Of a stretch of 45,562 nucleotides of DNA, positions 26,151 through 44,907 are shown piece by piece. Both the position numbers and the translations under genes were made by a program. Location of the stretch: the IMG/VR virus record IMGVR_UViG_3300015184_000033, one strand, 5' to 3'. Below the pieces are notes generated by a model. That model was not told the origin of the DNA and did not search any database. It saw only the letters and a program-made list of their open reading frames with translations. Numbering within the stretch: the stretch's first letter is position 1; the number at the start of each line of letters is the position of its first letter. The DNA comes from a virus (Duplodnaviria > Heunggongvirae > Uroviricota > Caudoviricetes).

Positions 26151-26226
26151 TGGTGGCCCCTACCGGATTTGAACCGATGACCGTGCGATTATGAGTCGCC
26201 TGCTCTAACCACTGAGCTAAGGGGCC
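26151..26226 (-). tRNA. tRNA with CAU anticodon (tRNA-Ile2/lysidine type more likely than tRNA-Met), CCA encoded
   Basis: Hand-folded cloverleaf: acceptor GGCCCCU/AGGGGCC, D-arm GCUC-AGUGGUUA-GAGC, anticodon loop CUCAUAA, T-arm AUCGG-UUCAAAU-CCGGU; 5' half matches remembered enterobacterial ileX. Confidence 0.8.
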
Positions 26227-34609: not shown

Positions 34610-34628
34610 TTAACGAACTCCAGTTAAA

Positions 34629-34746
34629 ACCACGATATGTGGTATTAAAACCACATATCGTGAGTTTTTCAATGGGCGAAACAAAAAATAACCTTCTATT
34701 TGTGGTCCACCTCTCGTCTTACCATGTGAAAACCACTAAATGTGGT
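34629..34746. promoter_or_regulatory. Operator cluster between divergent Cro-like and cI-like genes (ACCAC-N5-GTGGT sites)
   Basis: ACCACGATATGTGGT at 34629-34643, ACCACATATCGTGAG at 34650-34664, ACCACTAAATGTGGT at 34732-34746, plus GTGGTCCAC at about 34702. Confidence 0.6.
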
Positions 34747-34783
34747 AATGTATAAAGAACCCACCATTCACGATTGATGAGAC

Positions 34784-35440
34784 ATGAAAAGCAACGACGA
34801 GAACATCAAGAAAGAAATAGGTCTGCGCATTCAGACTCTACGGAAACAATCCGGCATGACTGCCGGAGATCTCCAGCAAGTCACTGGAATAGGCTTAAGC
34901 ACCTTGCAGAACTATGAGGCCGGATTAAGACAACCATCTATACCTGCCATCAAGAAAATCGCGCACGCCCTGAAAGCATCAGCGCCTTATATCGCGTGCT
35001 TAACAGATAACCCGTTCCCACCCCAGAATACTAACGCTCCTGTTATTCCTGGGCTTGTAGCTATAAAAAATGACATAGCATCGCACGCCGGAGAAAAGCC
35101 AGTGCTGGCGATAGAACAGGAGATTCTACGAAGCAAGAACATCAACCCATCGTCTCTGTCAGTTCTCCAGAGCAACGATGAGTTAATGTCACCAACAATA
35201 TCCCCTGGCTCCCAAGTCCTGATTAATACAGACGATACAGAGATTCATGAGGGGATCTATGCCCTTGAAGACAGAAATGGCCTGGTTGTTTTGAGGCACT
35301 GTAGAGTCATACCGGGTGACAATGCTGTTATGCTGTCAACCGAAAGGGATGCTGAAATGAACACTAAGCATCTGAATAACGAGGAATTTAAGCGTTATAA
35401 AGTTCTTGGCCGCGTAGTTAGTGTTGTCAACTGGTTATGA
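34784..35440 (+). CDS. cI-like repressor (HTH_XRE plus LexA-type S24 autopeptidase domain)
   Basis: 218-aa ORF; N-terminal HTH (LRKQSGMTAGDLQQVTGIGLSTLQNYEAG), C-terminal domain with MSPTISPG serine motif and a downstream Lys. Confidence 0.8.
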   Translation: MKSNDENIKKEIGLRIQTLRKQSGMTAGDLQQVTGIGLSTLQNYEAGLRQPSIPAIKKIAHALKASAPYIACLTDNPFPPQNTNAPVIPGLVAIKNDIASHAGEKPVLAIEQEILRSKNINPSSLSVLQSNDELMSPTISPGSQVLINTDDTEIHEGIYALEDRNGLVVLRHCRVIPGDNAVMLSTERDAEMNTKHLNNEEFKRYKVLGRVVSVVNWL

Positions 35441-35482
35441 TACACAGCACGGCGAAAGCCGTGCATTTCTACGCTCAAAAAA

Positions 35483-35497
35483 ACCACATTTTGTGGT
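35483..35497. promoter_or_regulatory. Operator-like palindrome ACCACATTTTGTGGT downstream of cI-like gene
   Basis: Same dyad as the immunity-region operators; also a hairpin. Confidence 0.45.
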
Positions 35498-35532
35498 TTT
35501 GACAACATGTAAAAGTATAAAAGAGGCTACGC

Positions 35533-35907
35533 ATGGAATTACATACAGCCAATAAAAACGAAACTCTGATCACTGCTGGAATCGAAATCCAAGCGTTGAA
35601 CATAGCGATTGAGTGTATGTTATGCCAAATCATTGATAATGAGAAAGATATCGACTGGATAGAATCTATCCTTCATCTGGCATCAGAACAAAAAGTCTGC
35701 CTCAAAACGGCCTTACAATACGATGTGCCAGCGGTATCGAAGCTGTGCCAGCCATTGATGGCATATAACAGGGCTATTATTTCTGTATGCCTCATGATTC
35801 TTGATGAAAACACCCCTCTTAGCGACCGCTCAGAAGCTGCTCTAACCCTCTCACGTAAACAGCGACAGCTAGCAAATCAACTGATATCAACGATAGCTGA
35901 CCTCTGA
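35533..35907 (+). CDS. Hypothetical protein
   Basis: 124-aa ORF downstream of cI-like gene; followed by hairpin. Confidence 0.5.
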   Translation: MELHTANKNETLITAGIEIQALNIAIECMLCQIIDNEKDIDWIESILHLASEQKVCLKTALQYDVPAVSKLCQPLMAYNRAIISVCLMILDENTPLSDRSEAALTLSRKQRQLANQLISTIADL

Positions 35908-37215: not shown

Positions 37216-37230
37216 ATTCAACCATAAAAA

Positions 37231-37248
37231 AGGCCCCCGAAGGGGCCT
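37231..37248 (-). terminator. Intrinsic terminator hairpin
   Basis: AGGCCCC-CGAA-GGGGCCT; on the minus strand followed by TTTTTATGG. Confidence 0.55.
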
Positions 37249-37253
37249 AATCG

Positions 37254-37376
37254 CTACTTGCTGCTAATGTTTATCGTCACATTCAGAGCGTTATCAGTAA
37301 TCTTCCAACCCTCCCCATGTGGCGTAAACAAAGCTCCAGTAACAACGATAAAAATACACATACAGTATTTTTTCAT
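37254..37376 (-). CDS. Small hydrophobic peptide (40 aa), candidate type-I toxin
   Basis: MKKYCMCIFIVVTGALFTPHGEGW...; SD-like AAGGG 5 nt upstream of ATG 37376; terminator immediately downstream. Confidence 0.35.
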   Translation of the reverse strand: MKKYCMCIFIVVTGALFTPHGEGWKITDNALNVTINISSK

Positions 37377-37440
37377 TGTGTGGCCCTTACAGGCCGTTTC
37401 ACGGCATCCCCACCGACGAAAATGACGCGAGAGCAAGCAC

Positions 37441-37460
37441 GCTGTTTGTGCCTGCGTGGT
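37441..37460. repeat. 20-bp direct repeat, copy 1 (GCTGTTTGTGCCTGCGTGGT)
   Basis: Matches 37691-37710 at 19 of 20 positions; lies 65 nt upstream of the small peptide ATG. Confidence 0.85.
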
Positions 37461-37690
37461 ACGGCAAGTGGATAATCCTTTCCTGAAAGTCAGTGCCCGG
37501 GTGCGAATCGGCGGAAAGGCCCCAAGCCATATTACACGTCATACCCTTCATAATGAAGGAATAAAAAACGCTTTTATTACATAAGATTACACGTAAATAA
37601 GTTAAAAACCTTCATTTTGCATGAGCTAATGAGCTAAATTTTTTTATATGAATAGTGGACTATTCACCTCAGTTGGGTAAGAATGTAGTT

Positions 37691-37768: not shown

Positions 37769-37793
37769 CCGTCCTCAAAAGGACGGTTTTTTT
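37769..37793 (+). terminator. Intrinsic terminator (bidirectional hairpin)
   Basis: CCGTCCT-CAAAA-AGGACGG followed by TTTTTTT on plus strand; also overlaps the stop codon of the minus-strand HTH gene. Confidence 0.5.
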
Positions 37794-38347
37794 GTTTCTC
37801 CCCCTTCCTTCCCAAATGATTCAAATGTTAATGAGAGAGAATCATTTGATATGTTCGATTTAGCGCCGTTATCGACCCAATTTCTGTATGCTTCATCACA
37901 ACAGTACCTTACAGCAGTTGGAATAACAGGAGAGCCGCCCAGAAATGAAAATCCCATTGAGCTTATGCTAATTCTTTCGAATGGCCTATTTCTCAATGCT
38001 TCAAATCCCTTGCTGTTGAAGTAACTCAGCATCAGAGGTAAAAGGTTATCCTCATCTTGACTGATTGTTCCCGGGAAAAAGTAGTAACCATGGCGATTAA
38101 ATTCGGGAATCAGTTTTTCTACCAACAACATGAAATTCATTGGGGTAATATTAAGGGCAGAGCAAGCACCAAAAAGAGCATCAACCGTTAATACAGACTG
38201 TCCGTTCTCTATCTTTGTCCATGCGTTTGGTGTTTTTCCAGCAGCTTGAGCCAGCACTCCTTGATGCACACCTCTTTCTAGCCTAAGTTCTTTTATGATC
38301 ATTAGGTGGATTGTTGAAAAACATGAGTTTTTTGACGTTTCAGTCAT
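37775..38347 (-). CDS. XRE-family HTH regulator (second repressor-like protein)
   Basis: Start placed at ATG 38347 (GGGGA upstream); HTH segment IKELRLERGVHQGVLAQAAGKTPNAWTKIENGQ. Confidence 0.55.
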   Translation of the reverse strand: MTETSKNSCFSTIHLMIIKELRLERGVHQGVLAQAAGKTPNAWTKIENGQSVLTVDALFGACSALNITPMNFMLLVEKLIPEFNRHGYYFFPGTISQDEDNLLPLMLSYFNSKGFEALRNRPFERISISSMGFSFLGGSPVIPTAVRYCCDEAYRNWVDNGAKSNISNDSLSLTFESFGKEGGETKKPSF

Positions 38348-38485
38348 TTTTTTATCCCCATATTGAATTTTTTCCTTGTTCCCAACTTTAACAAAACACC
38401 ACAACCCAGGATTGAGTCATTCCTTACAGGAACTATACATTCCCGTCTTTGGTATATCAAGAAAATTAAAAGCTCGGCATTCAAA

Positions 38486-38500
38486 CCCACACTATGTGGT
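38486..38500. promoter_or_regulatory. Operator-like dyad CCCACACTATGTGGT between HTH gene and antirepressor operon
   Basis: Matches ACCAC-N5-GTGGT family at 9 of 10 half-site positions. Confidence 0.45.
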
Positions 38501-38612
38501 TTAGTCTGTTAAAATCCGCCGTATTGACATGAATGCGCCATTGGTGGACACTTTCCGAGCCGTAGCAAAATCTACGGTCGGGATTGGAACCCCGATAATC
38601 ATCATGGCGCAT

Positions 38613-38635
38613 ACCGCGTTAGCGGTTTTTTTATG
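38613..38635 (+). terminator. Attenuator-like hairpin with T-run in the antirepressor leader
   Basis: ACCGC-GTTA-GCGGT followed by TTTTTTTAT; outer arms GCGCATA/TATGCG allow an alternative pairing. Confidence 0.4.
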
Positions 38636-38797
38636 CGTAAAGCACTGCTACACCCAAATTATGGTGGGGCGTGCGGGGGAGTCGTTAGACTCGCCGGATT
38701 CCATGGTGACCGGTAGTTCCAACCCTGTACGTCTCACCACCCAATGATTGGAACCAGACGGTGGTGAGTATCCTTAACCTTTAAGGGAACTATCACC

Positions 38798-38989
38798 ATG
38801 ACAAACTTACCCCATGACTATTACGTCAACCTCGTAAAGATCCTTCTCAAGAAAGCCTCATACGCCGATAAATTACGCCTGGCTGAAATCATCGAGCGCG
38901 AAGCTATGCGCATCGCCAGCAACGATAACGCTGTTTCTGACGCAAAAATCTCCCTCGTAACCAAAGTAGTTATGGGAGGTGCAAAATGA
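38798..38989 (+). CDS. Small protein preceding antirepressor (Icd-like position)
   Basis: 63-aa ORF with SD AAGGGAA; stop overlaps the antirepressor ATG (ATGA). Confidence 0.45.
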   Translation: MTNLPHDYYVNLVKILLKKASYADKLRLAEIIEREAMRIASNDNAVSDAKISLVTKVVMGGAK

Positions 38990-40155
38990 AAACGCTTCCG
39001 ACCGTTAACACCCTACAGCCTATCCTGCATAACCAGATCCCCGTTATCACTACTGAACTTTTGGCGCAGTTTTACGGCACCGAGATCAACAATATCAAAG
39101 TCAATTACACCCGTAATGCTGAAAGGTTTGTTGAGGGAAAACACTTTTTCAAAGTTGGTGGCGATGCCCTGAAAAATTTGCGGGTTACTTTAAGTAACTC
39201 ACAAAATTTGCAACCATCTTTAAGAGGGTTACAAATTTCCCCGAAAGCCCGCTCCCTCATTCTCTGGACAGAACGCGGGGCTGCACGTCACGCTAAAATG
39301 CTCGAAACCGATCAGGCGTGGGATGTATTCGAACGGCTGGAAGACTGCTATTTCAACCAGAACGCGCAAACGGCCGCGACCGTAACCGTCTCGCCAAACA
39401 ATGCTCGTGAGGTTGTCGATACGCTCAACGCCAAACCGATGTTTTACATTAAGGTGTGCAATAACGAGCCACTCACAACCTCAGCCGATGTTGCCCAGGC
39501 ATTCAGCACCACAAACAATTCCATCGTTATGGCCATCGATGCGTTACGCATTCCTCGCACAGCTGCGGCGCGTCATTTCTTTAAAGAGCAACGACCGTTG
39601 GAAGGAAGCGACCGCGAAATAACAATCTATCGCATGACAAAAGACGGATTTACCTTGCTCATGGAAAGTATCGACGGTCCAGGCGTGAAGGATATCAAGC
39701 TGGCCTACATTGAAGCCTTTAACGCTATCAGCAGCGTGTTAAAAACACAGTACGAGCGCGATCTGGCTAAACGACTGTACCAGGAAAAAACGATTATCCG
39801 CGCGGCAACAGAGCATAATCGGCTATTAACGGAACCGAACTACAGGAAGGAACTAATCAAGGAGTTTGACAAGGCAACAGGGAAAACCAAAGCGGCGCTA
39901 AATCTGCCAGCAATGACTCAGGAAAATGTGATATCAGCCTTACTTCTTGATCTGCTCAGAAACGCCAGAGCACTGATCAGCTTTGACGAAAACCTGAATC
40001 CTCAGCTCAAGCTACTACCACCGACAGGCAAAGTAGTCGACCAGGCAGATCACAACAGCATACTCAGCGTACTGGATGCAAACCTGCCAGCCAGGACACT
40101 ACAGGAGCTGATAAAAACATGTGCTGATAAGCTCGCACAGAAAAGCAGACCATAA
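38986..40155 (+). CDS. Antirepressor (AntA-like N-terminal domain)
   Basis: 389-aa ORF; N-terminus HNQIPVITTELLAQFYGTEINNIKVNYTRNAERFVEGKHFFKV matches the phage antirepressor N-terminal signature. Confidence 0.8.
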   Translation: MKTLPTVNTLQPILHNQIPVITTELLAQFYGTEINNIKVNYTRNAERFVEGKHFFKVGGDALKNLRVTLSNSQNLQPSLRGLQISPKARSLILWTERGAARHAKMLETDQAWDVFERLEDCYFNQNAQTAATVTVSPNNAREVVDTLNAKPMFYIKVCNNEPLTTSADVAQAFSTTNNSIVMAIDALRIPRTAAARHFFKEQRPLEGSDREITIYRMTKDGFTLLMESIDGPGVKDIKLAYIEAFNAISSVLKTQYERDLAKRLYQEKTIIRAATEHNRLLTEPNYRKELIKEFDKATGKTKAALNLPAMTQENVISALLLDLLRNARALISFDENLNPQLKLLPPTGKVVDQADHNSILSVLDANLPARTLQELIKTCADKLAQKSRP

Positions 40156-40687
40156 CAACAAAGGGGCTACGGCCCCTTTAAGACACACCCCCCCTCCCCC
40201 CATACAGGGTGCCCTTTACCGGAGTTCCGGCCCCTTCTCAAAAGCATCAAAAAAAGCTCGAGATAGAGTACCGGAACTCATGCCACCAGATAGCTCCACA
40301 TCGTTTCCAATGCTTCGCCGCCGTGTGCGCCCTGTGGCCCACAATCATGCCATTGGTCGTCTGATATACCTTCTTCTGCTCATAGAGCACAGGCGAGTTG
40401 TCGCACTCCTGCCTTTCTCAGACTCGACTTAGTTTAGATCGCTGTTCCTGGCTTGCGTCAGCACACTTTCCCCTTGTACGCATACCCGCGCGCCACTTCG
40501 CCCAAAAACACCGAACCCAACGAAGTGGCAAAGACAACGACGCGAGCGTGAGTCTGAAATGGGCACCAGTAAAAAAGGGGTTGCAGGCGCAAAAAGATTT
40601 GATTATCTTTAGACGCAAGAAAGCCGCCCCAATCAAGAGGTGTCTTTTTAAATCCAGCCTACCAAGCAAGATTTAAATTTCAGACTG

Positions 40688-41632: not shown

Positions 41633-41932
41633 TCAGATGTTAAACGCTATTCGTTTTCCTGTGGGAAGCTCAACATCCAGGCTTAATTTGCCTCCCATAG
41701 CTTCAACGTAACGCTTTAATGTCGCCAGCTTTAAATCATTTCCGCGCTGCTCCAGCTTTGTTACTGCTGGCTGGCTTATACCCATCGCCTCAGCAACCTG
41801 TTTTTGTGATAACTGGAGTTCTTCACGCATCATCTGCAAGCCGACCTCAAGAATCATCTCATCTGCCATTTCTTTAATTCGCGCCTGGCTTTCCGGTGAA
41901 CGGCTGGCAATCGCCTCATCTAATGTTCTCAT
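41633..41932 (-). CDS. HigA-like HTH antitoxin
   Basis: 99-aa ORF with XRE-type HTH (LQLSQKQVAEAMGISQPAVTKLEQ); immediately downstream of toxin-like ORF. Confidence 0.65.
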   Translation of the reverse strand: MRTLDEAIASRSPESQARIKEMADEMILEVGLQMMREELQLSQKQVAEAMGISQPAVTKLEQRGNDLKLATLKRYVEAMGGKLSLDVELPTGKRIAFNI

Positions 41933-42279
41933 TACTTGCTCTCCAGTGTGTTCAGATGTGCTGCAAACTCATCCTCAGCTATACGCACCAGTTTTTCATA
42001 AAACCGCTTATCGTTACTTTTGTCTCCTGCACAAAGAACGATGGCCCGGCGAATCGGATCGAACGCATAAAAGGCTCTTATCGGACGGCCAGAAAACTGA
42101 ACGCGAAGCTCTTTCATATTTTTGTACCGAGAACCTTTTACGGTATCGGCATATGGCCTGGGTAACTCAGGTCCGTAAACCTGTAGCTTTTTCAAATCAG
42201 CCAAAACCTTTTCCTGAAGAGCGTCTTCTTGCTCATTTAGCCAGTCGTCAAATCGCTGGCTAAAAAGTACCGTCCACAT
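41932..42279 (-). CDS. HigB/RelE-superfamily toxin-like protein (Gp49-like)
   Basis: About 115 aa from ATG 42279 (AGGA upstream); motifs KELRVQFSGRPIRAFYAF and VLCAGDKSND typical of HigB-like killer proteins; toxin-first order. Confidence 0.6.
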   Translation of the reverse strand: MWTVLFSQRFDDWLNEQEDALQEKVLADLKKLQVYGPELPRPYADTVKGSRYKNMKELRVQFSGRPIRAFYAFDPIRRAIVLCAGDKSNDKRFYEKLVRIAEDEFAAHLNTLESK

Positions 42280-42523
42280 GCTCAATCCTATAACCTGTAG
42301 TTTATATCACTAACTATATAACCTGTGAGTTATAATTTCAAGAAAAACGGGGCTATTTAACATAATGGACGTTATCGGCACCACCGGATCACCGTTCATT
42401 GTCGGATCTAAAAAATCCGCTCAAAAGATCATGTTTTCCTGGGCGTTTTCCACCGTTTTTTATGTTGCTTATTTGTTAATGAAATCTCGTTTTCAGTTTC
42501 GCCTCATTTTCGACGCGAAAGCC

Positions 42524-43743: not shown

Positions 43744-44592
43744 TTAATGTTGGAGTGATTTCCAGGTCTTTCTTAACCTGTTATAACGCTGCTCAACGAG
43801 GGATCGTAAATATGCAAGGTCAGCTCCAGGATACATGCCATCAGCAAATTCCTGGCTAACCTCTCTAGTGATTTGATGACGAAGTTCGGCCTCTCCCTTT
43901 TCCCGAACAAGACGCGCAGCTCTCTCCGCTGCTTTCTGTTTTGCCTTTATCTCTCTGGCCGTCTTCCTCTGACGCCATACATTCTCCATCTGCTCCTGAA
44001 TAACAATACGCTTATAATCAGCCTCCGTTATCGCTTTTTTAAGCCGTTCGCTATTCTTCGCATTGAAGTAATTAAGTTTCTGGCTAACCGCACGTCTCCA
44101 TGCTTGTTCAGTAATACCAACGGTTTCCAGCAGTTGATCACGAATCTCTATTTTCGCTGGCCAATACTGTTTATTCACCCGATCCCAGCGACGTTCATAA
44201 TCAATAAAACCTAACTCTTTCAGTTGCGACAACGCCCTTGTACAGCGCGTTATAGACTTGTTCCCAGCTTCGGATACGGTAGACAGGCCGCAAAAATCAG
44301 CCAACGCCTCAGCACTGGCCAGAACCCGCTTAGAAATGATGTTTACATGGTGCAAAATCGCAGCAATCACAGCATTAATTGCCCGACGACGATGCTCGTT
44401 TATCCGGCGTTTCCGCTCTGACGGTTGATTAACGTAGAACGCAACCTCACACGTAAGATCACGACCATTAATGCGCTGTAAAGCATCAGATAACACCAGC
44501 GGCAGCTTGTGCGTATGGTGCTTTGGAGGCTGGAACTCCGGCGACAAATTACAAACGTAAGCTGAACGTAGAGACGGCATTGGTCTATCCAT
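43744..44592 (-). CDS. repA: Replication initiator RepA (IncFII RepA1 family)
   Basis: Block SITRCTRALSQLKELGFIDYE aligns with remembered R100 RepA1 SITRATRALTFLSELGLITYQ; start set at ATG 44592 because the tracked ORF starts at GTG 44736 and its first codons overlap an antisense-strand terminator hairpin. Confidence 0.75.
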   Translation of the reverse strand: MDRPMPSLRSAYVCNLSPEFQPPKHHTHKLPLVLSDALQRINGRDLTCEVAFYVNQPSERKRRINEHRRRAINAVIAAILHHVNIISKRVLASAEALADFCGLSTVSEAGNKSITRCTRALSQLKELGFIDYERRWDRVNKQYWPAKIEIRDQLLETVGITEQAWRRAVSQKLNYFNAKNSERLKKAITEADYKRIVIQEQMENVWRQRKTAREIKAKQKAAERAARLVREKGEAELRHQITREVSQEFADGMYPGADLAYLRSLVEQRYNRLRKTWKSLQH

Positions 44593-44690
44593 ATGTTCGC
44601 TCTTGCGTCCACGGAAAACCAACGTATAATGGGAGTTGTCGAGGCGCCCATGGTTAGTTGTTGGTTTTCCTTTCCGTGGATGTCGCAAGA

Positions 44691-44722
44691 AGCCCGCAGA
44701 TTTATCTGCGGGCTTTTTGTTT
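44691..44722 (+). terminator. Hairpin plus T-run antisense to the repA leader (candidate CopA-like antisense RNA terminator)
   Basis: GCCCGCAGA-TTTA-TCTGCGGGC followed by TTTTTGTTT on the plus strand. Confidence 0.45.
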
Positions 44723-44762
44723 CCATATCTGGTCACTTTTCAACCAGACACCCACAATCATA

Positions 44763-44777
44763 ACCACGTTACGTGGT
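44763..44777. promoter_or_regulatory. Operator-like dyad ACCACGTTACGTGGT upstream of the repA leader
   Basis: Perfect ACCAC-N5-GTGGT dyad, same family as immunity-region operators. Confidence 0.5.
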
Positions 44778-44907
44778 TTTAAGAGAACTCTACCACAACA
44801 CTTTCGGTCATGCACGAAGTCTCTCACTGATCGAACGATAATCCACCAGTAAAAGGATCTAAATTGGATCTCGTTTTGCGAGCATCATACTACTGGCCTA
44901 ACTCCAG

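What the first reader, a model, noticed from the sequence alone, without database searches (positions are those of the whole stretch)
38486..40155. Antirepressor operon with operator, attenuator-like leader hairpins and a small upstream ORF (immI-like organisation)
Upstream of the AntA-like gene there is an operator-like dyad (38486-38500), a leader containing a short hairpin plus T-run (38613-38635) with alternative outer pairing (GCGCATA/TATGCG), a 9-bp stem (38733-38741 with 38760-38768) just before the SD, and a 63-aa ORF translationally coupled to ant. This matches the logic of P1/P7 immI and N15 immA, where RNA-mediated premature termination controls ant expression.
Basis: partly seen in the sequence, partly recalled or inferred. 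Interest (0 to 1): 0.5.

Follow-up and report, generated by a model that had tools for sequence, protein, structure and literature searches.

The report
P1-type antisense-RNA brake on antirepressor
This stretch of an E. coli phage-plasmid is an ordinary member of the known P1 immI / N15 immA system, in which a small antisense RNA (C4) cut from the operon's own leader keeps a phage antirepressor gene switched off.

Summary
The leader holds two Rfam RNA families: isrK (38559-38632, 70 bits) and C4 antisense RNA (38657-38744, 84 bits). The hairpin plus T-run is the isrK terminator. The 9-bp stem is the 3' arm of C4 pairing with a downstream element, and it covaries across relatives. C4's two unpaired segments match sites in the upstream leader (a1, b1) and sites downstream (a2, b2). 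Site b2 covers the AUG of the 63-codon ORF, whose stop overlaps the ant start (ATGA). In 50 of 50 leader variants from other phages, b2 lies within -21 to +8 of the start codon, and the sites change together with the C4 loops. The dyad is one of six copies of AACCAC-N5-GTGGTT. Three copies flank a CI-like repressor gene, so it is a credible operator. P1 and N15 carry homologous leaders in the same order, but the 63-aa protein and Ant (ORF6N + Rha domains, not AntA) are unrelated to P1 or N15 proteins. Verdict: a new member of a known kind, with its own RNA specificity. Low interest. The mechanism is inferred by homology and was not tested.

The parts
38484..38502 (.). Operator-like palindrome AACCCAC-ACTAT-GTGGTTT (dyad core 38487-38499), upstream of the ant leader promoters
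   Evidence: It is one of six copies of AACCAC-N5-GTGGTT in the window; the motif gives 8 hits against 1.5 expected, with 0 of 100 shuffles reaching 8. Three copies lie in the divergent region beside the CI-like repressor gene. Homology with sister plasmids that lack the neighbouring HTH gene begins exactly here. Binding by the repressor is inferred.
38507..38515 (+). Candidate repressor-controlled promoter: extended -10 TGTTAAAAT, with its -35 region lying under the operator (analogous to P1 P2c4/P51a)
   Evidence: Read directly from the sequence. The position mirrors P1, where Oc4 overlaps the -35 of P2c4. The consensus scan did not detect it because the -35 is poor. Inferred.
38524..38552 (+). 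Leader promoter: TTGACA (38524-29), 17-nt spacer, GACACT (38547-52); predicted start near 38559 (equivalent to P1 P1c4/P51b)
   Evidence: The same TTGAnn-17-TAnAnT arrangement sits 6-8 nt before the first leader hairpin in more than 50 distinct relatives and in P1's annotated P1c4. The isrK model starts at 38559.
38559..38632 (+). IsrK-like leader RNA: hairpin 1 (38559-78), hairpin 2 (38579-94) with site a1 in its loop, single-stranded site b1, and an intrinsic terminator (stem 38613-26 followed by seven U)
   Evidence: Rfam isrK RF01394 scores 70.2 bits against a gathering score of 50. The terminator scan finds it. Hairpin 1 has 5 of 7 pairs with changes on both sides. c4-a1b1 RF03163 scores 38.2 bits, below its gathering score of 46.7.
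38582..38590 (+). Site a1 (GAUUGGAAC), complementary to the C4 a' segment
   Evidence: The duplex with a' scores -14.0 kcal/mol over 38579-38591. The cognate a'/upstream duplex is the best in its row for 11 of 13 a' types.
38599..38607 (+). Site b1 (UCAUCAUGG), complementary to the C4 b' loop (one G-U pair)
   Evidence: The duplex scores -12.2 kcal/mol. The cognate duplex is the best in its row for 25 of 32 b' types.
38607..38638 (+). Outer helix GCGCAU (38607-12) / AUGCGU (38633-38) that encloses the terminator hairpin and its U-run; it can form only in read-through transcripts
   Evidence: Predicted by folding. It is present with compensatory changes in 45 distinct terminator variants, including P1-type and N15.
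38657..38744 (+). C4 antisense RNA gene. The predicted mature RNA is 38663-38741 (79 nt), by homology with P1 C4. It has a 16-17-bp closing stem, hairpin 1 (38679-92), and hairpin 2 (38693-714) with b' in its loop (38701-09); a' (38715-25, core 38716-22) is unpaired
   Evidence: Rfam C4 RF01695 scores 84 bits against a gathering score of 45 and matches the full-length model. The fold gives -44.3 kcal/mol, z -4.9. The P1 c4 feature (L003 2543-2619) starts at the homologous G and ends at the homologous CCACC. All 5 pairs of hairpin 1 change on both sides.
38748..38754 (+). Site a2 (UUGGAAC), 7 nt after the predicted C4 3' end; complementary to a'
   Evidence: The duplex scores -8.8 kcal/mol. The best a' match starts 3-11 nt after the C4 3' end in 46 of 50 leader variants.
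38760..38768 (+). GGUGGUGAG, the downstream partner of the C4 3' arm (38733-41).
   Evidence: It covaries as CUCAC:GUGAG, CCUGC:GCAGG (P1-type), GCUAC:GUAGC (N15) and CACCGC:GCGGUG (Salmonella plasmid). It is part of the unconstrained minimum-energy fold of the read-through leader.
38767..38791 (+). Local hairpin that sequesters the Shine-Dalgarno sequence AAGGGA (38783-88) of the 63-codon ORF
   Evidence: The inverted repeat I14 is 82% complementary, and the hairpin appears in the folds. It is specific to this lineage and was not tested by covariation.
38793..38800 (+). Site b2 (UCACCAUG), complementary to the C4 b' loop; it includes the AUG (38798-800) of the 63-codon ORF
   Evidence: The duplex scores -12.5 kcal/mol, and 8 of 500 shuffled targets do as well. 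The b2 site lies within -21 to +8 of the start codon in 50 of 50 leader variants. The cognate duplex is the best in its row for 27 of 32 b' types.
38798..38989 (+). 63-codon ORF in the position of P1 icd; its stop codon overlaps the ant start codon (ATGA)
   Evidence: It matches phrog_7886 over its full length at 158 bits. It is intact in 60 of 61 plasmids of this family. Against the Salmonella copy there are 10 synonymous and 7 non-synonymous codon differences. It has no similarity to P1 Icd or to N15 gp31/gp32.
38986..40155 (+). Putative antirepressor gene (389 aa): an N-terminal ORF6N domain and a central Phage_pRha domain. Its own SD, GGGAGG, lies 38974-79
   Evidence: Pfam gives ORF6N at 2.9e-19 and Phage_pRha at 4e-12. 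PHROG anti-repressor families match. It is not similar to P1 Ant1 or N15 gp30. Antirepressor activity is inferred from these family names.
40159..40180 (.). G+C-rich hairpin just after the ant stop codon; the probable end of the operon and of the convergent gene
   Evidence: The terminator scan flags it on the minus strand. On the plus strand no T-run follows it.

Best explanation
The region is a P1-immI-type anti-immunity operon controlled by a C4 antisense RNA that is made from the operon's own leader.

Shown by sequence and comparison:
- A family-conserved promoter (TTGACA-17-GACACT) starts transcription near 38559.
- The first 74 nt form an IsrK-like RNA. It carries sites a1 and b1 and ends in a short intrinsic terminator.
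- Read-through transcripts contain the C4 RNA.
- C4's hairpin-2 loop (b') and its unpaired segment (a') are complementary to a1/b1 upstream and to a2/b2 downstream.
- Site b2 covers the AUG of a 63-codon ORF, and that ORF's stop overlaps the ant start.

Inferred from P1 (established knowledge):
- C4 is released by RNase P and 3' trimming as an RNA of about 79 nt.
- It binds a2 and b2, which blocks ribosome entry at the 63-codon ORF.
- Because ant depends on upstream translation, Ant is not made. The dependence would come from ATGA coupling, a weak hairpin over ant's SD, and a C-rich, G-poor stretch at 38780-38880 that could load Rho.

Second layer, inferred from N15/P4 and Gifsy-1:
- Pairing of C4 with a1/b1, either on nascent leaders or on the released short RNA, tunes termination at 38613-32.
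- Conversely, the short RNA can titrate C4.
- The read-through leader can adopt two nearly isoenergetic folds. One is C4-folded. The other is locked in cis, with a1 paired to a', b1 paired to b', and the 9-bp stem formed.

Operator (inferred):
- The upstream palindrome probably binds the element's CI-like repressor and shuts an extra promoter (extended -10 at 38507-15) in the lysogen.
- Ant is therefore made only when transcription outruns C4.
For: - Rfam gives C4 at 84 bits and isrK at 70 bits.
- P1's annotated immI has the same order of parts, and its leader is homologous. N15's immA leader is also homologous.
- Complementarity in the window: a'/a1 -14.0, b'/b1 -12.2, a'/a2 -8.8 and b'/b2 -12.5 kcal/mol.
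- Among 96 distinct leaders from viral contigs there are 13 a' types and 32 b' types in 40 combinations.
- Cognate duplexes are far stronger than non-cognate ones. For b'/downstream the means are -12.9 against -7.2 kcal/mol, and the cognate is best for 27 of 32 types.
- Site b2 lies in the ribosome-binding region in 50 of 50 variants.
- A sister plasmid with 94% identity changed a1, a' and a2 together, and changed b' and b2 together.
- Helix covariation supports the RNA structures.
- The two conformers fold at -101.5 and -99.5 kcal/mol, like structures A and B reported for Gifsy-1 isrK (PMC4825925).
- The operator motif recurs beside the CI-like repressor gene.
- The promoter is conserved in position across the family.
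- The P1 mechanism is summarised in PMC12197685 and in the P1 record's notes.
Against: - Nothing here is experimental. No transcript ends, processing or repression were measured for this element.
- The -10 hexamer GACACT matches the consensus at only 3 of 6 positions, and the consensus scan did not call the promoter.
- The a'/a2 core is only 7 bp. An equally good a' match (GGAACUA, 38786-92) lies next to b2 and is not conserved in the sister plasmid.
- ant has a strong SD of its own, so its dependence on translation of the 63-codon ORF is assumed, not shown.
- The 63-aa protein and Ant are unrelated to P1 Icd and Ant, so protein-level functions cannot be transferred.
- Loop-loop pairing cannot be modelled by the cofold used.
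Confidence: 0.72

Rival explanations
1. N15/P4-type control dominates. C4 acts mainly on the nascent leader: it pairs with a1 and b1 just upstream of the weak intrinsic terminator (38613-32) and makes termination efficient there. Few transcripts then reach ORF63 and ant, and the a2/b2 sites are only a back-up.
For: - Complementarity of a1/b1 to C4 is maintained as tightly as that of a2/b2: the cognate is best for 11 of 13 a' types and 25 of 32 b' types.
- In the window, a'/a1 is the strongest duplex at -14.0 kcal/mol.
- The terminator has a stem of only 5 bp and is conserved in every relative.
- N15 has the same isrK terminator between a1/b1 and its C4 homologue.
- P4 CI RNA is reported to cause termination by pairing with seqA and seqC (PMC4825925 discussion; PMC3632133).
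- From memory, the N15 paper (Ravin et al. 1999) reports termination that depends on CA RNA. That paper could not be read here.
Against: - No competing antiterminator structure was found that C4 binding would remove. The growing transcript folds straight into the terminator.
- This model does not explain why b2 sits on the ribosome-binding site in 50 of 50 variants.
- It is compatible with the best explanation rather than exclusive of it.
Confidence: 0.35
2. Gifsy-1 IsrK-type activation. The short terminated leader RNA (38559-38632) is the active regulator. It acts in trans on the read-through transcript, which is locked in a translationally silent cis-paired fold, opens it and switches on ORF63 and ant.
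For: - The isrK model matches at 70 bits.
- The unconstrained fold of the read-through leader is the cis-paired form, and it lies within 2 kcal/mol of the C4-folded form. This parallels structures A and B in PMC4825925.
- The 9-bp stem of that cis fold covaries.
Against: - In Gifsy-1 the coupled ORF (orf45) starts inside the C4-like segment, at nt 107 of the transcript, and runs into anrP.
- Here that frame stops at 38745-47, 51 nt before ORF63, so that arrangement is absent.
- The short RNA carries the same sites (a1, b1) as the mRNA (a2, b2). It therefore cannot pair with a2/b2 or the ORF63 ribosome-binding site, only with the C4 segment. A decoy for C4 is the simpler reading.
Confidence: 0.2
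3. A purely cis-acting attenuator. The leader hairpins switch between terminator and antiterminator forms in response to a protein, a metabolite or leader-peptide translation, and no trans-acting RNA is involved.
Against: - The alternative pairings are accounted for by the C4 and isrK structures.
- No alternative helix overlaps the terminator stem.
- Four short sites covary with the C4 loops across 40 specificity types, which a cis attenuator does not require.
Confidence: 0.03
4. The leader encodes a protein. The 72-codon ORF 38529-38747 is an 'Ash family' protein, as NCBI annotates in sister plasmids, and the RNA-family matches are incidental.
For: - Its translation matches Pfam Phage_ASH PF10554 at 37.9 bits, above the cutoff of 26.
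- Sister plasmids carry 'ash family protein' annotations here.
- In many lambdoid relatives this frame is open across the whole leader.
- Gifsy-1 orf45 is reported to be translated from the AUG inside the C4-like segment.
Against: - The ORF starts at 38529, between the -35 and -10 of the conserved promoter, so it lies upstream of the predicted transcript start. No SD precedes any in-frame AUG.
- The frame is interrupted at different places in this lineage and in P1-type leaders.
- In the sister plasmid the 'Ash' CDS is a different stretch, which starts in the C4 loop and runs into the ORF63 frame.
- Substitutions preserve base pairs, not codons.
Confidence: 0.03

Closest known systems
Phage P1/P7 immI operon (Oc4 operator, P2c4/P1c4 promoters, a1, b1, c4 RNA, a2, b2, icd, ant1/ant2)
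   Same: - The order of all parts is the same.
- The leader and C4 RNA are homologous: blastn identity is 80-82% over the C4 5' part, and the C4 model matches.
- The mature ends align with P1's annotated c4.
- A repressor operator lies just upstream of tandem promoters.
- Two pairs of target sites are present, and the second downstream site lies on the ribosome-binding site of a small ORF.
- The small ORF overlaps the ant start codon.
- The same alternative helix forms between the C4 3' arm and a downstream element.
   Different: - The a and b sequences differ, giving a different immunity specificity.
- Site b2 covers the AUG (-6 to +3) rather than the SD (-19 to -8).
- The small ORF is unrelated to Icd.
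- Ant here has ORF6N + Rha domains, whereas P1 Ant1 has a KilAC domain.
- The operator is a palindrome for a CI-like HTH repressor, not the asymmetric C1 site.
- The host element is a circular phage-plasmid of about 48 kb with an IncFII-type RepA, not a P1-like genome.
Phage-plasmid N15 immA (anti-immunity) locus with CA RNA
   Same: - The N15 leader gives isrK (62 bits) and C4 (79 bits), plus a sub-threshold c4-a1b1 match (42.4 bits, gathering score 46.7), in the same order.
- An intrinsic terminator lies between a1/b1 and the C4 homologue.
- The alternative helix is present with its own covarying sequence, GCUACCACC/GGUGGUAGC.
- Both elements are plasmid prophages.
   Different: - N15 has three downstream genes (gp32, gp31, gp30), none similar to ORF63 or Ant.
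- N15 gp30 is a Bro-N protein.
- The primary N15 paper could not be read, so its termination mechanism is cited from memory only.
Gifsy-1 isrK-orf45-anrP locus of Salmonella (Hershko-Shalev et al. 2016, PMC4825925)
   Same: - It has the same isrK RNA family with a leaky terminator.
- A processed C4-like RNA (STnc1160) lies downstream.
- The read-through transcript has two alternative folds.
- A small ORF is translationally coupled to an antirepressor.
   Different: - In Gifsy-1 the coupled ORF begins inside the C4-like segment. Here that frame is closed, and a separate ORF follows C4, as in P1.
- The published model makes IsrK an activator that acts on the mRNA. Here the site geometry favours C4 as repressor and the short RNA as a decoy.
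Satellite phage P4 immunity (seqA, CI RNA with seqB, seqC)
   Same: According to PMC3632133 and PMC4825925, seqA is a structural homologue of IsrK and CI RNA of C4. A processed RNA pairs with sites before and after itself.
   Different: - P4 controls replication genes, not an antirepressor, and is reported to act by premature termination.
- The P4 sequence was not compared here.
Phage P22 immI (mnt, arc, ant, sar RNA)
   Same: It is an antirepressor operon under extra negative control that includes an antisense RNA.
   Different: - From established knowledge, P22 uses the protein repressors Mnt and Arc, plus a cis-encoded antisense RNA (sar) transcribed from the opposite strand.
- Here no minus-strand promoter-like site lies in 38600-39000, and the RNA is encoded in the sense orientation within the leader.
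- The two systems are not related.

Membership tests
Rfam RF01695 C4 antisense RNA | Covariance-model score at or above the gathering score (45 bits) over the full model | tested here: met
   84.0 bits, E 3.3e-15, model positions 1-87 of 87, at 38657-38744 on the plus strand.
Rfam RF01695 C4 antisense RNA | Long closing stem enclosing two hairpins, with the second loop and the following segment left unpaired | tested here: met
   The minimum-energy fold gives this structure at -44.3 kcal/mol, z -4.9. Hairpin 1 covaries at all 5 pairs across 41 leaders.
Rfam RF01394 isrK | Score at or above the gathering score (50 bits); two hairpins followed by an intrinsic terminator | tested here: met
   70.2 bits over model positions 1-77 of 77, at 38559-38632. 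The terminator is also found by the consensus scan.
Rfam RF03163 c4-a1b1 | Score at or above the gathering score (46.7 bits) | tested here: not met
   38.2 bits, E 4e-08, at 38546-38598. This is a significant match but below the curated threshold. N15 also falls just below it at 42.4 bits.
P1/P7-type immI operon | C4 loop sequences complementary to two sites on the mRNA, one of which lies on the ribosome-binding site of the first ORF | tested here: met
   b'/b2 is 8 bp and covers the AUG; a'/a2 is 7 bp and lies 7 nt after C4. The pattern holds in 50 of 50 variants.
P1/P7-type immI operon | A second copy of both target sites (a1, b1) upstream of C4 | tested here: met
   a1 is at 38582-90 and b1 at 38599-607.
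P1/P7-type immI operon | A small ORF translationally coupled to ant | tested here: met
   There is an ATGA overlap at 38986-89. Functional coupling was not tested.
P1/P7-type immI operon | The small ORF is an Icd homologue and the antirepressor is an Ant1/Ant2 (KilAC) homologue | tested here: not met
   BLASTP finds no alignment to Icd and only E above 5 to Ant1. The Pfam domains differ.
P1/P7-type immI operon | An operator for the primary repressor at the operon promoter | tested here: inconclusive
   A palindrome shared with five other sites, three of them beside the CI-like repressor gene, lies directly upstream of an extended -10. Binding was not tested, and the repressor is not C1.
P1/P7-type immI operon | C4 is released from the leader by RNase P and represses ant in trans | not testable with these tools
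   This needs RNA mapping and genetics.
N15 immA / P4-type termination control | The small RNA increases termination at a leader terminator by pairing with upstream sites | not testable with these tools
   The anatomy is compatible: a1/b1 lie directly before a weak terminator. No computation here can show an effect on termination.
Gifsy-1 isrK-orf45-anrP arrangement | The coupled ORF starts at the AUG inside the C4-like segment and runs to the antirepressor start | tested here: not met
   The frame from AUG 38661 stops at 38745-47, and ORF63 starts at 38798 in another frame.
   Pfam reports only ORF6N and Phage_pRha at E up to 0.01.

The most novel reading that the evidence does not exclude
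The leader may be a conserved bistable RNA switch, not just a precursor.

- In one fold, C4 forms its tRNA-like shape and can be matured into the repressor.
C4 is then not an RNase P substrate, and a2 is displayed in a loop.
- The balance between these folds would decide when the antirepressor escapes. It would be shifted by the short terminated RNA acting as a C4 decoy and by extra transcripts from the repressor-controlled upstream promoter.
- This logic would be shared by P1, N15 and lambdoid phages.
- The modular mixing of a and b sites (40 combinations in 96 leaders) would then be a combinatorial immunity code.
Probability: 0.25. Interest if true: 0.45.

Novelty: new member of a known kind. 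Interest (0 to 1): 0.2.

Why it matters
Practical value:
- It gives a correct annotation for a region that public records leave as 'hypothetical protein' or 'ash family protein'.
- It identifies the immunity determinant of a common family of E. coli phage-plasmids of about 48 kb.
- It predicts which members are hetero-immune. Sixteen plasmids share this exact C4 loop region, while sister plasmids carry others.

Conceptual value:
- It adds one more case in which the portable IsrK-C4 RNA cassette has been joined to unrelated antirepressor cargo.
- It does not change what is known about the system.

Tried and rejected
- Column-based covariation for the intermolecular sites was abandoned. The a and b sites shift position and length between lineages, and MAFFT misaligns P1-type rows. 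Cognate versus non-cognate duplex energies and site positions were used instead.
- RNAcofold of mature C4 with the mRNA or with the short RNA gave no interaction, because loop-loop (pseudoknot-type) pairing is outside its model. This was not taken as evidence against pairing.
- The divergent HTH gene 37775-38350(-) was considered as the dedicated regulator and rejected. Sister plasmids lack it yet keep the operator and the leader.
- Homology of ORF63 to Icd or N15 gp31/gp32, and of Ant to P1 Ant1 or N15 gp30, was tested and was negative.
- A separate promoter for C4 between the terminator and C4 was looked for by eye. The only -10-like hexamer (AATTAT, 38657-62) would start transcription inside C4.
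- A LexA box near the promoters was looked for by eye and none was found (CTGT-N8-GCCG at 38505-20).
- A P22-style antisense promoter was not found.
- The 9-nt perfect complement 38533-41/38604-12 has a chance expectation of about one per 800-nt region, and its conservation cannot be assessed.
- Three primary papers could not be read: Ravin et al. 1999 on N15, Sabbattini et al. 1995 on P4 and Mardanov & Ravin 2007. Statements about their mechanisms rest on secondary sources and on memory.


Full report
**What the window is.** The region 38300-40200 is 92-97% identical to circular E. coli, E. albertii, E. fergusonii and Klebsiella plasmids of about 47-52 kb. All are typed non-mobilizable. It is equally close to Yersinia phages vB_YpM_39/41/44. 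The window is therefore part of a phage-plasmid. The finding lies between a ParA-type partition gene and a HigBA module.

**Checking the observation.** All four features are present.

- *Dyad.* CCACA-CTA-TGTGG lies at 38487-99. As an RNA hairpin it is no better than shuffles (z -0.46). As a DNA motif it recurs. AACCAC-N5-GTGGTT with up to two mismatches occurs 8 times against 1.5 expected, and 0 of 100 shuffles reach 8.
- *Where the motif copies lie.* Six hits form a coherent set. Three lie in the 175-bp divergent region next to a 218-aa HTH protein that matches CI-like repressor PHROGs (34628, 34649, 34731). One lies just downstream of that gene, in front of the next ORF (35482). One lies upstream of an IncFII-type repA gene (44762). 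The same sites recur in sister plasmids.
- *Module boundary.* Many sister plasmids lack the divergent HTH gene at 37775-38350. Their homology to the window begins exactly at the first base of the palindrome. The palindrome therefore belongs to the ant module.
- *Hairpin plus T-run.* The stem is at 38613-26 and is followed by seven T. The terminator scan finds it. It is kept, with compensatory changes, in 45 distinct variants of this terminator from other phages, including P1-type and N15.
- *The 9-bp stem.* 38733-41/38760-68 is perfectly complementary.
- *The small ORF.* The 63-codon ORF (38798-38989) overlaps the ant start as ATGA.

A scan of the whole window against Rfam gives two adjacent plus-strand matches in the leader. 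One is isrK (RF01394) at 38559-38632, 70.2 bits against a gathering score of 50. The other is C4 antisense RNA (RF01695) at 38657-38744, 84 bits against 45. Both cover their full models. A more permissive scan adds c4-a1b1 (RF03163) at 38546-98. It scores 38.2 bits, which is significant but below its gathering score of 46.7. The hairpin plus T-run is the isrK terminator.

**Target sites.** C4 has two unpaired segments. One is the loop of its second hairpin (b', 38701-09, CCAUGGUGA). The other is the stretch before the 3' arm (a', core GUUCCAA, 38716-22).

| Site | Coordinates | Sequence | Pairs with | Duplex (kcal/mol) | Note |
|---|---|---|---|---|---|
| a1 | 38582-90 | GAUUGGAAC | a' | -14.0 | In the loop of isrK hairpin 2 |
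| b1 | 38599-607 | UCAUCAUGG | b' | -12.2 | Single-stranded, just before the terminator |
| a2 | 38748-54 | UUGGAAC | a' | -8.8 | 7 nt after the C4 3' end |
| b2 | 38793-800 | UCACCAUG | b' | -12.5 | Includes the AUG of the 63-codon ORF |

This is the a1-b1-c4-a2-b2 layout annotated in the P1 genome record. There the order is Oc4 operator, P2c4 and P1c4 promoters, a1, b1, c4, a2, b2, icd, ant1/ant2, and icd overlaps ant1. By alignment with P1's annotated 77-nt c4 RNA, the mature RNA here should be 38663-38741.

**Comparative test.**

- *Breadth.* A blastn search with the leader finds homologous leaders in 166 phage records. These include P1, D6, SJ46, ST64B, phiP27, APSE-2 and many Stx phages.
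- *Sample.* An exact 15-mer from the C4 5' arm retrieved 120 viral contigs. They yielded 96 distinct leaders, with 13 a' types and 32 b' types in 40 combinations.
- *Specificity.* Each C4 segment pairs far better with its own flanks than with the flanks of other types. For b' against downstream sequence, the cognate mean is -12.9 and the non-cognate mean -7.2 kcal/mol, and the cognate is best for 27 of 32 types. For b' against upstream sequence the cognate is best for 25 of 32. For a' the figures are 11 of 13 upstream and 8 of 13 downstream.
- *Position.* In 50 of 50 distinct variants, the best b' match downstream lies between -21 and +8 of the start codon. It usually lies on the Shine-Dalgarno sequence. 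In this lineage and a few others it lies on the AUG.
- *Sister plasmid.* A plasmid with 94% identity has changed a1, a' and a2 together (to GAUUGGCGUC / UUACGCCAA). It has also changed b' and b2 together.
- *Intramolecular helices.* On 41 leaders, 94% of cells are paired against 82% in shuffles and 25-47% when the partners are slid. Fourteen pairs change on both sides.

**The 9-bp stem.** It is conserved and covaries: CUCAC:GUGAG here, CCUGC:GCAGG in P1-type leaders, GCUAC:GUAGC in N15 and CACCGC:GCGGUG in a Salmonella plasmid. The C4 5' arm is G-rich and pairs with all of these 3' arms through G-U pairs. The downstream element tracks the 3' arm by Watson-Crick complementarity, so it is not merely a copy of the 5' arm.

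Folding the read-through leader (38559-38830) gives a minimum-energy structure of -101.5 kcal/mol. In it a1 pairs with a', b1 pairs with b', and the 9-bp stem forms. Forcing the canonical C4 fold costs only 2 kcal/mol (-99.5). The Gifsy-1 isrK study reports the same kind of two-state leader, with structures A and B (PMC4825925). The stem is thus part of an alternative precursor fold, not an attenuator hairpin in front of the SD.

**Promoters and operator.** TTGACA (38524-29), a 17-nt spacer and GACACT (38547-52) end seven bases before the isrK start. The consensus scan missed this promoter because the -10 matches at only 3 of 6 positions. The same TTGAnn-17-TAnAnT arrangement sits at the same distance from hairpin 1 in more than 50 distinct relatives, and it corresponds to P1's annotated P1c4.

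Directly after the palindrome there is an extended -10, TGTTAAAAT (38507-15), whose -35 region lies under the palindrome. That mirrors P1, where the C1 operator Oc4 overlaps the -35 of the upstream promoter P2c4 and the downstream promoter is not overlapped by the operator. Binding by the repressor and promoter activity are both inferred.

**Proteins.**

- *The 63-aa product.* It matches only phrog_7886, of unknown function. It is confined to this plasmid family: 61 records, 60 of them full-length. Against a Salmonella copy it differs by 10 synonymous and 7 non-synonymous codons, which suggests it is translated. It is unrelated to P1 Icd and to N15 gp31/gp32.
- *The 389-aa product.* It has ORF6N and Phage_pRha domains and matches several anti-repressor PHROGs. 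It is not an AntA-family protein. It is unrelated to P1 Ant1 (KilAC domain) and to N15 gp30 (Bro-N domain).

Only the RNA cassette and the architecture are shared with P1 and N15.

**How it most likely works.**

Shown here:
- the RNA genes;
- the complementary sites and their covariation;
- the position of b2 on the start codon;
- the ATGA overlap.

Inferred from P1 (record notes; review PMC12197685):
- C4 is cut from the leader.
- It pairs with a2 and b2 and blocks ribosome binding at the small ORF.
- ant stays silent because it depends on upstream translation. Three features are compatible with that dependence. The first is the ATGA overlap. The second is a C-rich, G-poor stretch at 38780-38880 (C/G ratio 2.3-2.5). 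The third is a weak hairpin over the ant SD.

The upstream sites are kept as complementary to C4 as the downstream ones, so they must also function. Three roles are possible and cannot be separated here:
- C4-stimulated termination at the weak 5-bp terminator, as reported for P4 and, from memory, for N15;
- decoy action of the short RNA;
- the cis-locked precursor fold.

The Gifsy-1 arrangement has the coupled ORF starting inside the C4-like segment. It is absent here because that frame closes at 38745-47.

**Rival reading as a protein.** The translation of 38529-38747 matches Pfam Phage_ASH (37.9 bits), and NCBI annotates 'ash family protein' at this locus in sister plasmids. Four points argue against a protein product here:
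- The ORF starts inside the promoter.
- It lacks an SD.
- It is interrupted at different places in related leaders.
- It evolves by pair-preserving substitutions.

**Verdict.** The hairpins are re-assigned to a trans-acting RNA system, and the AntA label is dropped. The IsrK-C4 pairing in P4, P1, P7, N15 and lambdoid prophages is already described (PMC3632133; PMC4825925). This is a new member with its own specificity and unrelated protein cargo. Sixteen plasmids share the identical C4 loop region. Interest is low, and no experiment supports the mechanism in this element.

Noticed in passing
window 34626-34749, 35479-35501, 44760-44780: Besides the copy at ant, there are five more copies of the palindrome AACCAC-N5-GTGGTT. 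Three lie in the divergent region between a leftward operon and a 218-aa CI-like HTH gene (34784-35440). One lies in front of the next gene (35533-35907). One lies upstream of an IncFII-type repA (43744-44736, minus strand). This looks like a small repressor regulon that ties lytic genes, ant and plasmid replication together. Pfam finds no Peptidase_S24 domain in the repressor, which would fit induction through an antirepressor.
   Followed up: partly
window 37226-37524 (-): There is a full-length Rfam ryfA match (131 bits against a gathering score of 80) between the partition genes and the HTH gene. It overlaps a small hydrophobic ORF (37254-37436, minus strand, internal start MKKYCMCIFIVV...). 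From memory, ryfA encodes the TimP small toxin with the TimR antisense RNA, so this may be a type I toxin-antitoxin module carried on a phage-plasmid.
   Followed up: no
window 38529-38747; relatives L004 and others: Pfam Phage_ASH (PF10554) matches the conceptual translation of the isrK-C4 RNA region. NCBI annotates 'ash family protein' at this locus in sister plasmids, over C4 and the downstream ORF. In 49 of 96 related leaders, mostly lambdoid, the frame through the C4 AUG is open across the whole extracted 440 nt and continues into the downstream gene. Either the Pfam family is built largely on translated RNA genes, or the segment is both RNA and coding in some phages, as reported for Gifsy-1 orf45.
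   Followed up: partly
viral contig loci L010-L127 (leaders in /scratch/leaders.fa): The a and b specificity sites assort independently. There are 13 a' types and 32 b' types in 40 combinations among 96 distinct leaders. The same a' (for example UAGUUCCAACC) occurs with five different b' loops. This suggests recombination or modular diversification of RNA-based immunity.
   Followed up: partly
window 37775-38483: The divergent HTH gene (191-209 aa, XRE-type) and its promoter-like site (38460 to 38432, minus strand) are an accessory insertion. Many sister plasmids replace this segment with unrelated sequence that ends in a terminator, and the junction falls at the first base of the ant operator.
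   Followed up: partly
window 38533-38541 and 38604-38612: There is a perfect 9-nt complement (AUGCGCCAU / AUGGCGCAU) between the spacer of the leader promoter and the b1/outer-stem region. It would be transcribed only from the upstream (operator-controlled) promoter, and it could then alter access to b1. It is at chance level for a region of this size, and its conservation cannot be assessed among near-identical relatives.
   Followed up: no
window 38785-38793: In this element only, the a' segment of C4 also matches GGAACUA, immediately 5' of b2 (-9.6 kcal/mol). C4 could therefore pair almost continuously with 38786-38800, which spans the SD to the AUG. The sister plasmid keeps GGAACUA but has a different a', so this may be coincidence.
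   Followed up: partly
window 26151-26226 (-): A tRNA gene with anticodon CAU (called tRNA-Met by ARAGORN; Rfam tRNA 67 bits) is carried by the phage-plasmid.
   Followed up: no
window 41633-42285 (-): A RelE/ParE-family toxin gene (117 aa) and an HTH antitoxin gene (99 aa) form a pair. The equivalent pair is annotated as higB2 / HTH in relatives. N15 carries a similar pair (gene 48/49).
   Followed up: no
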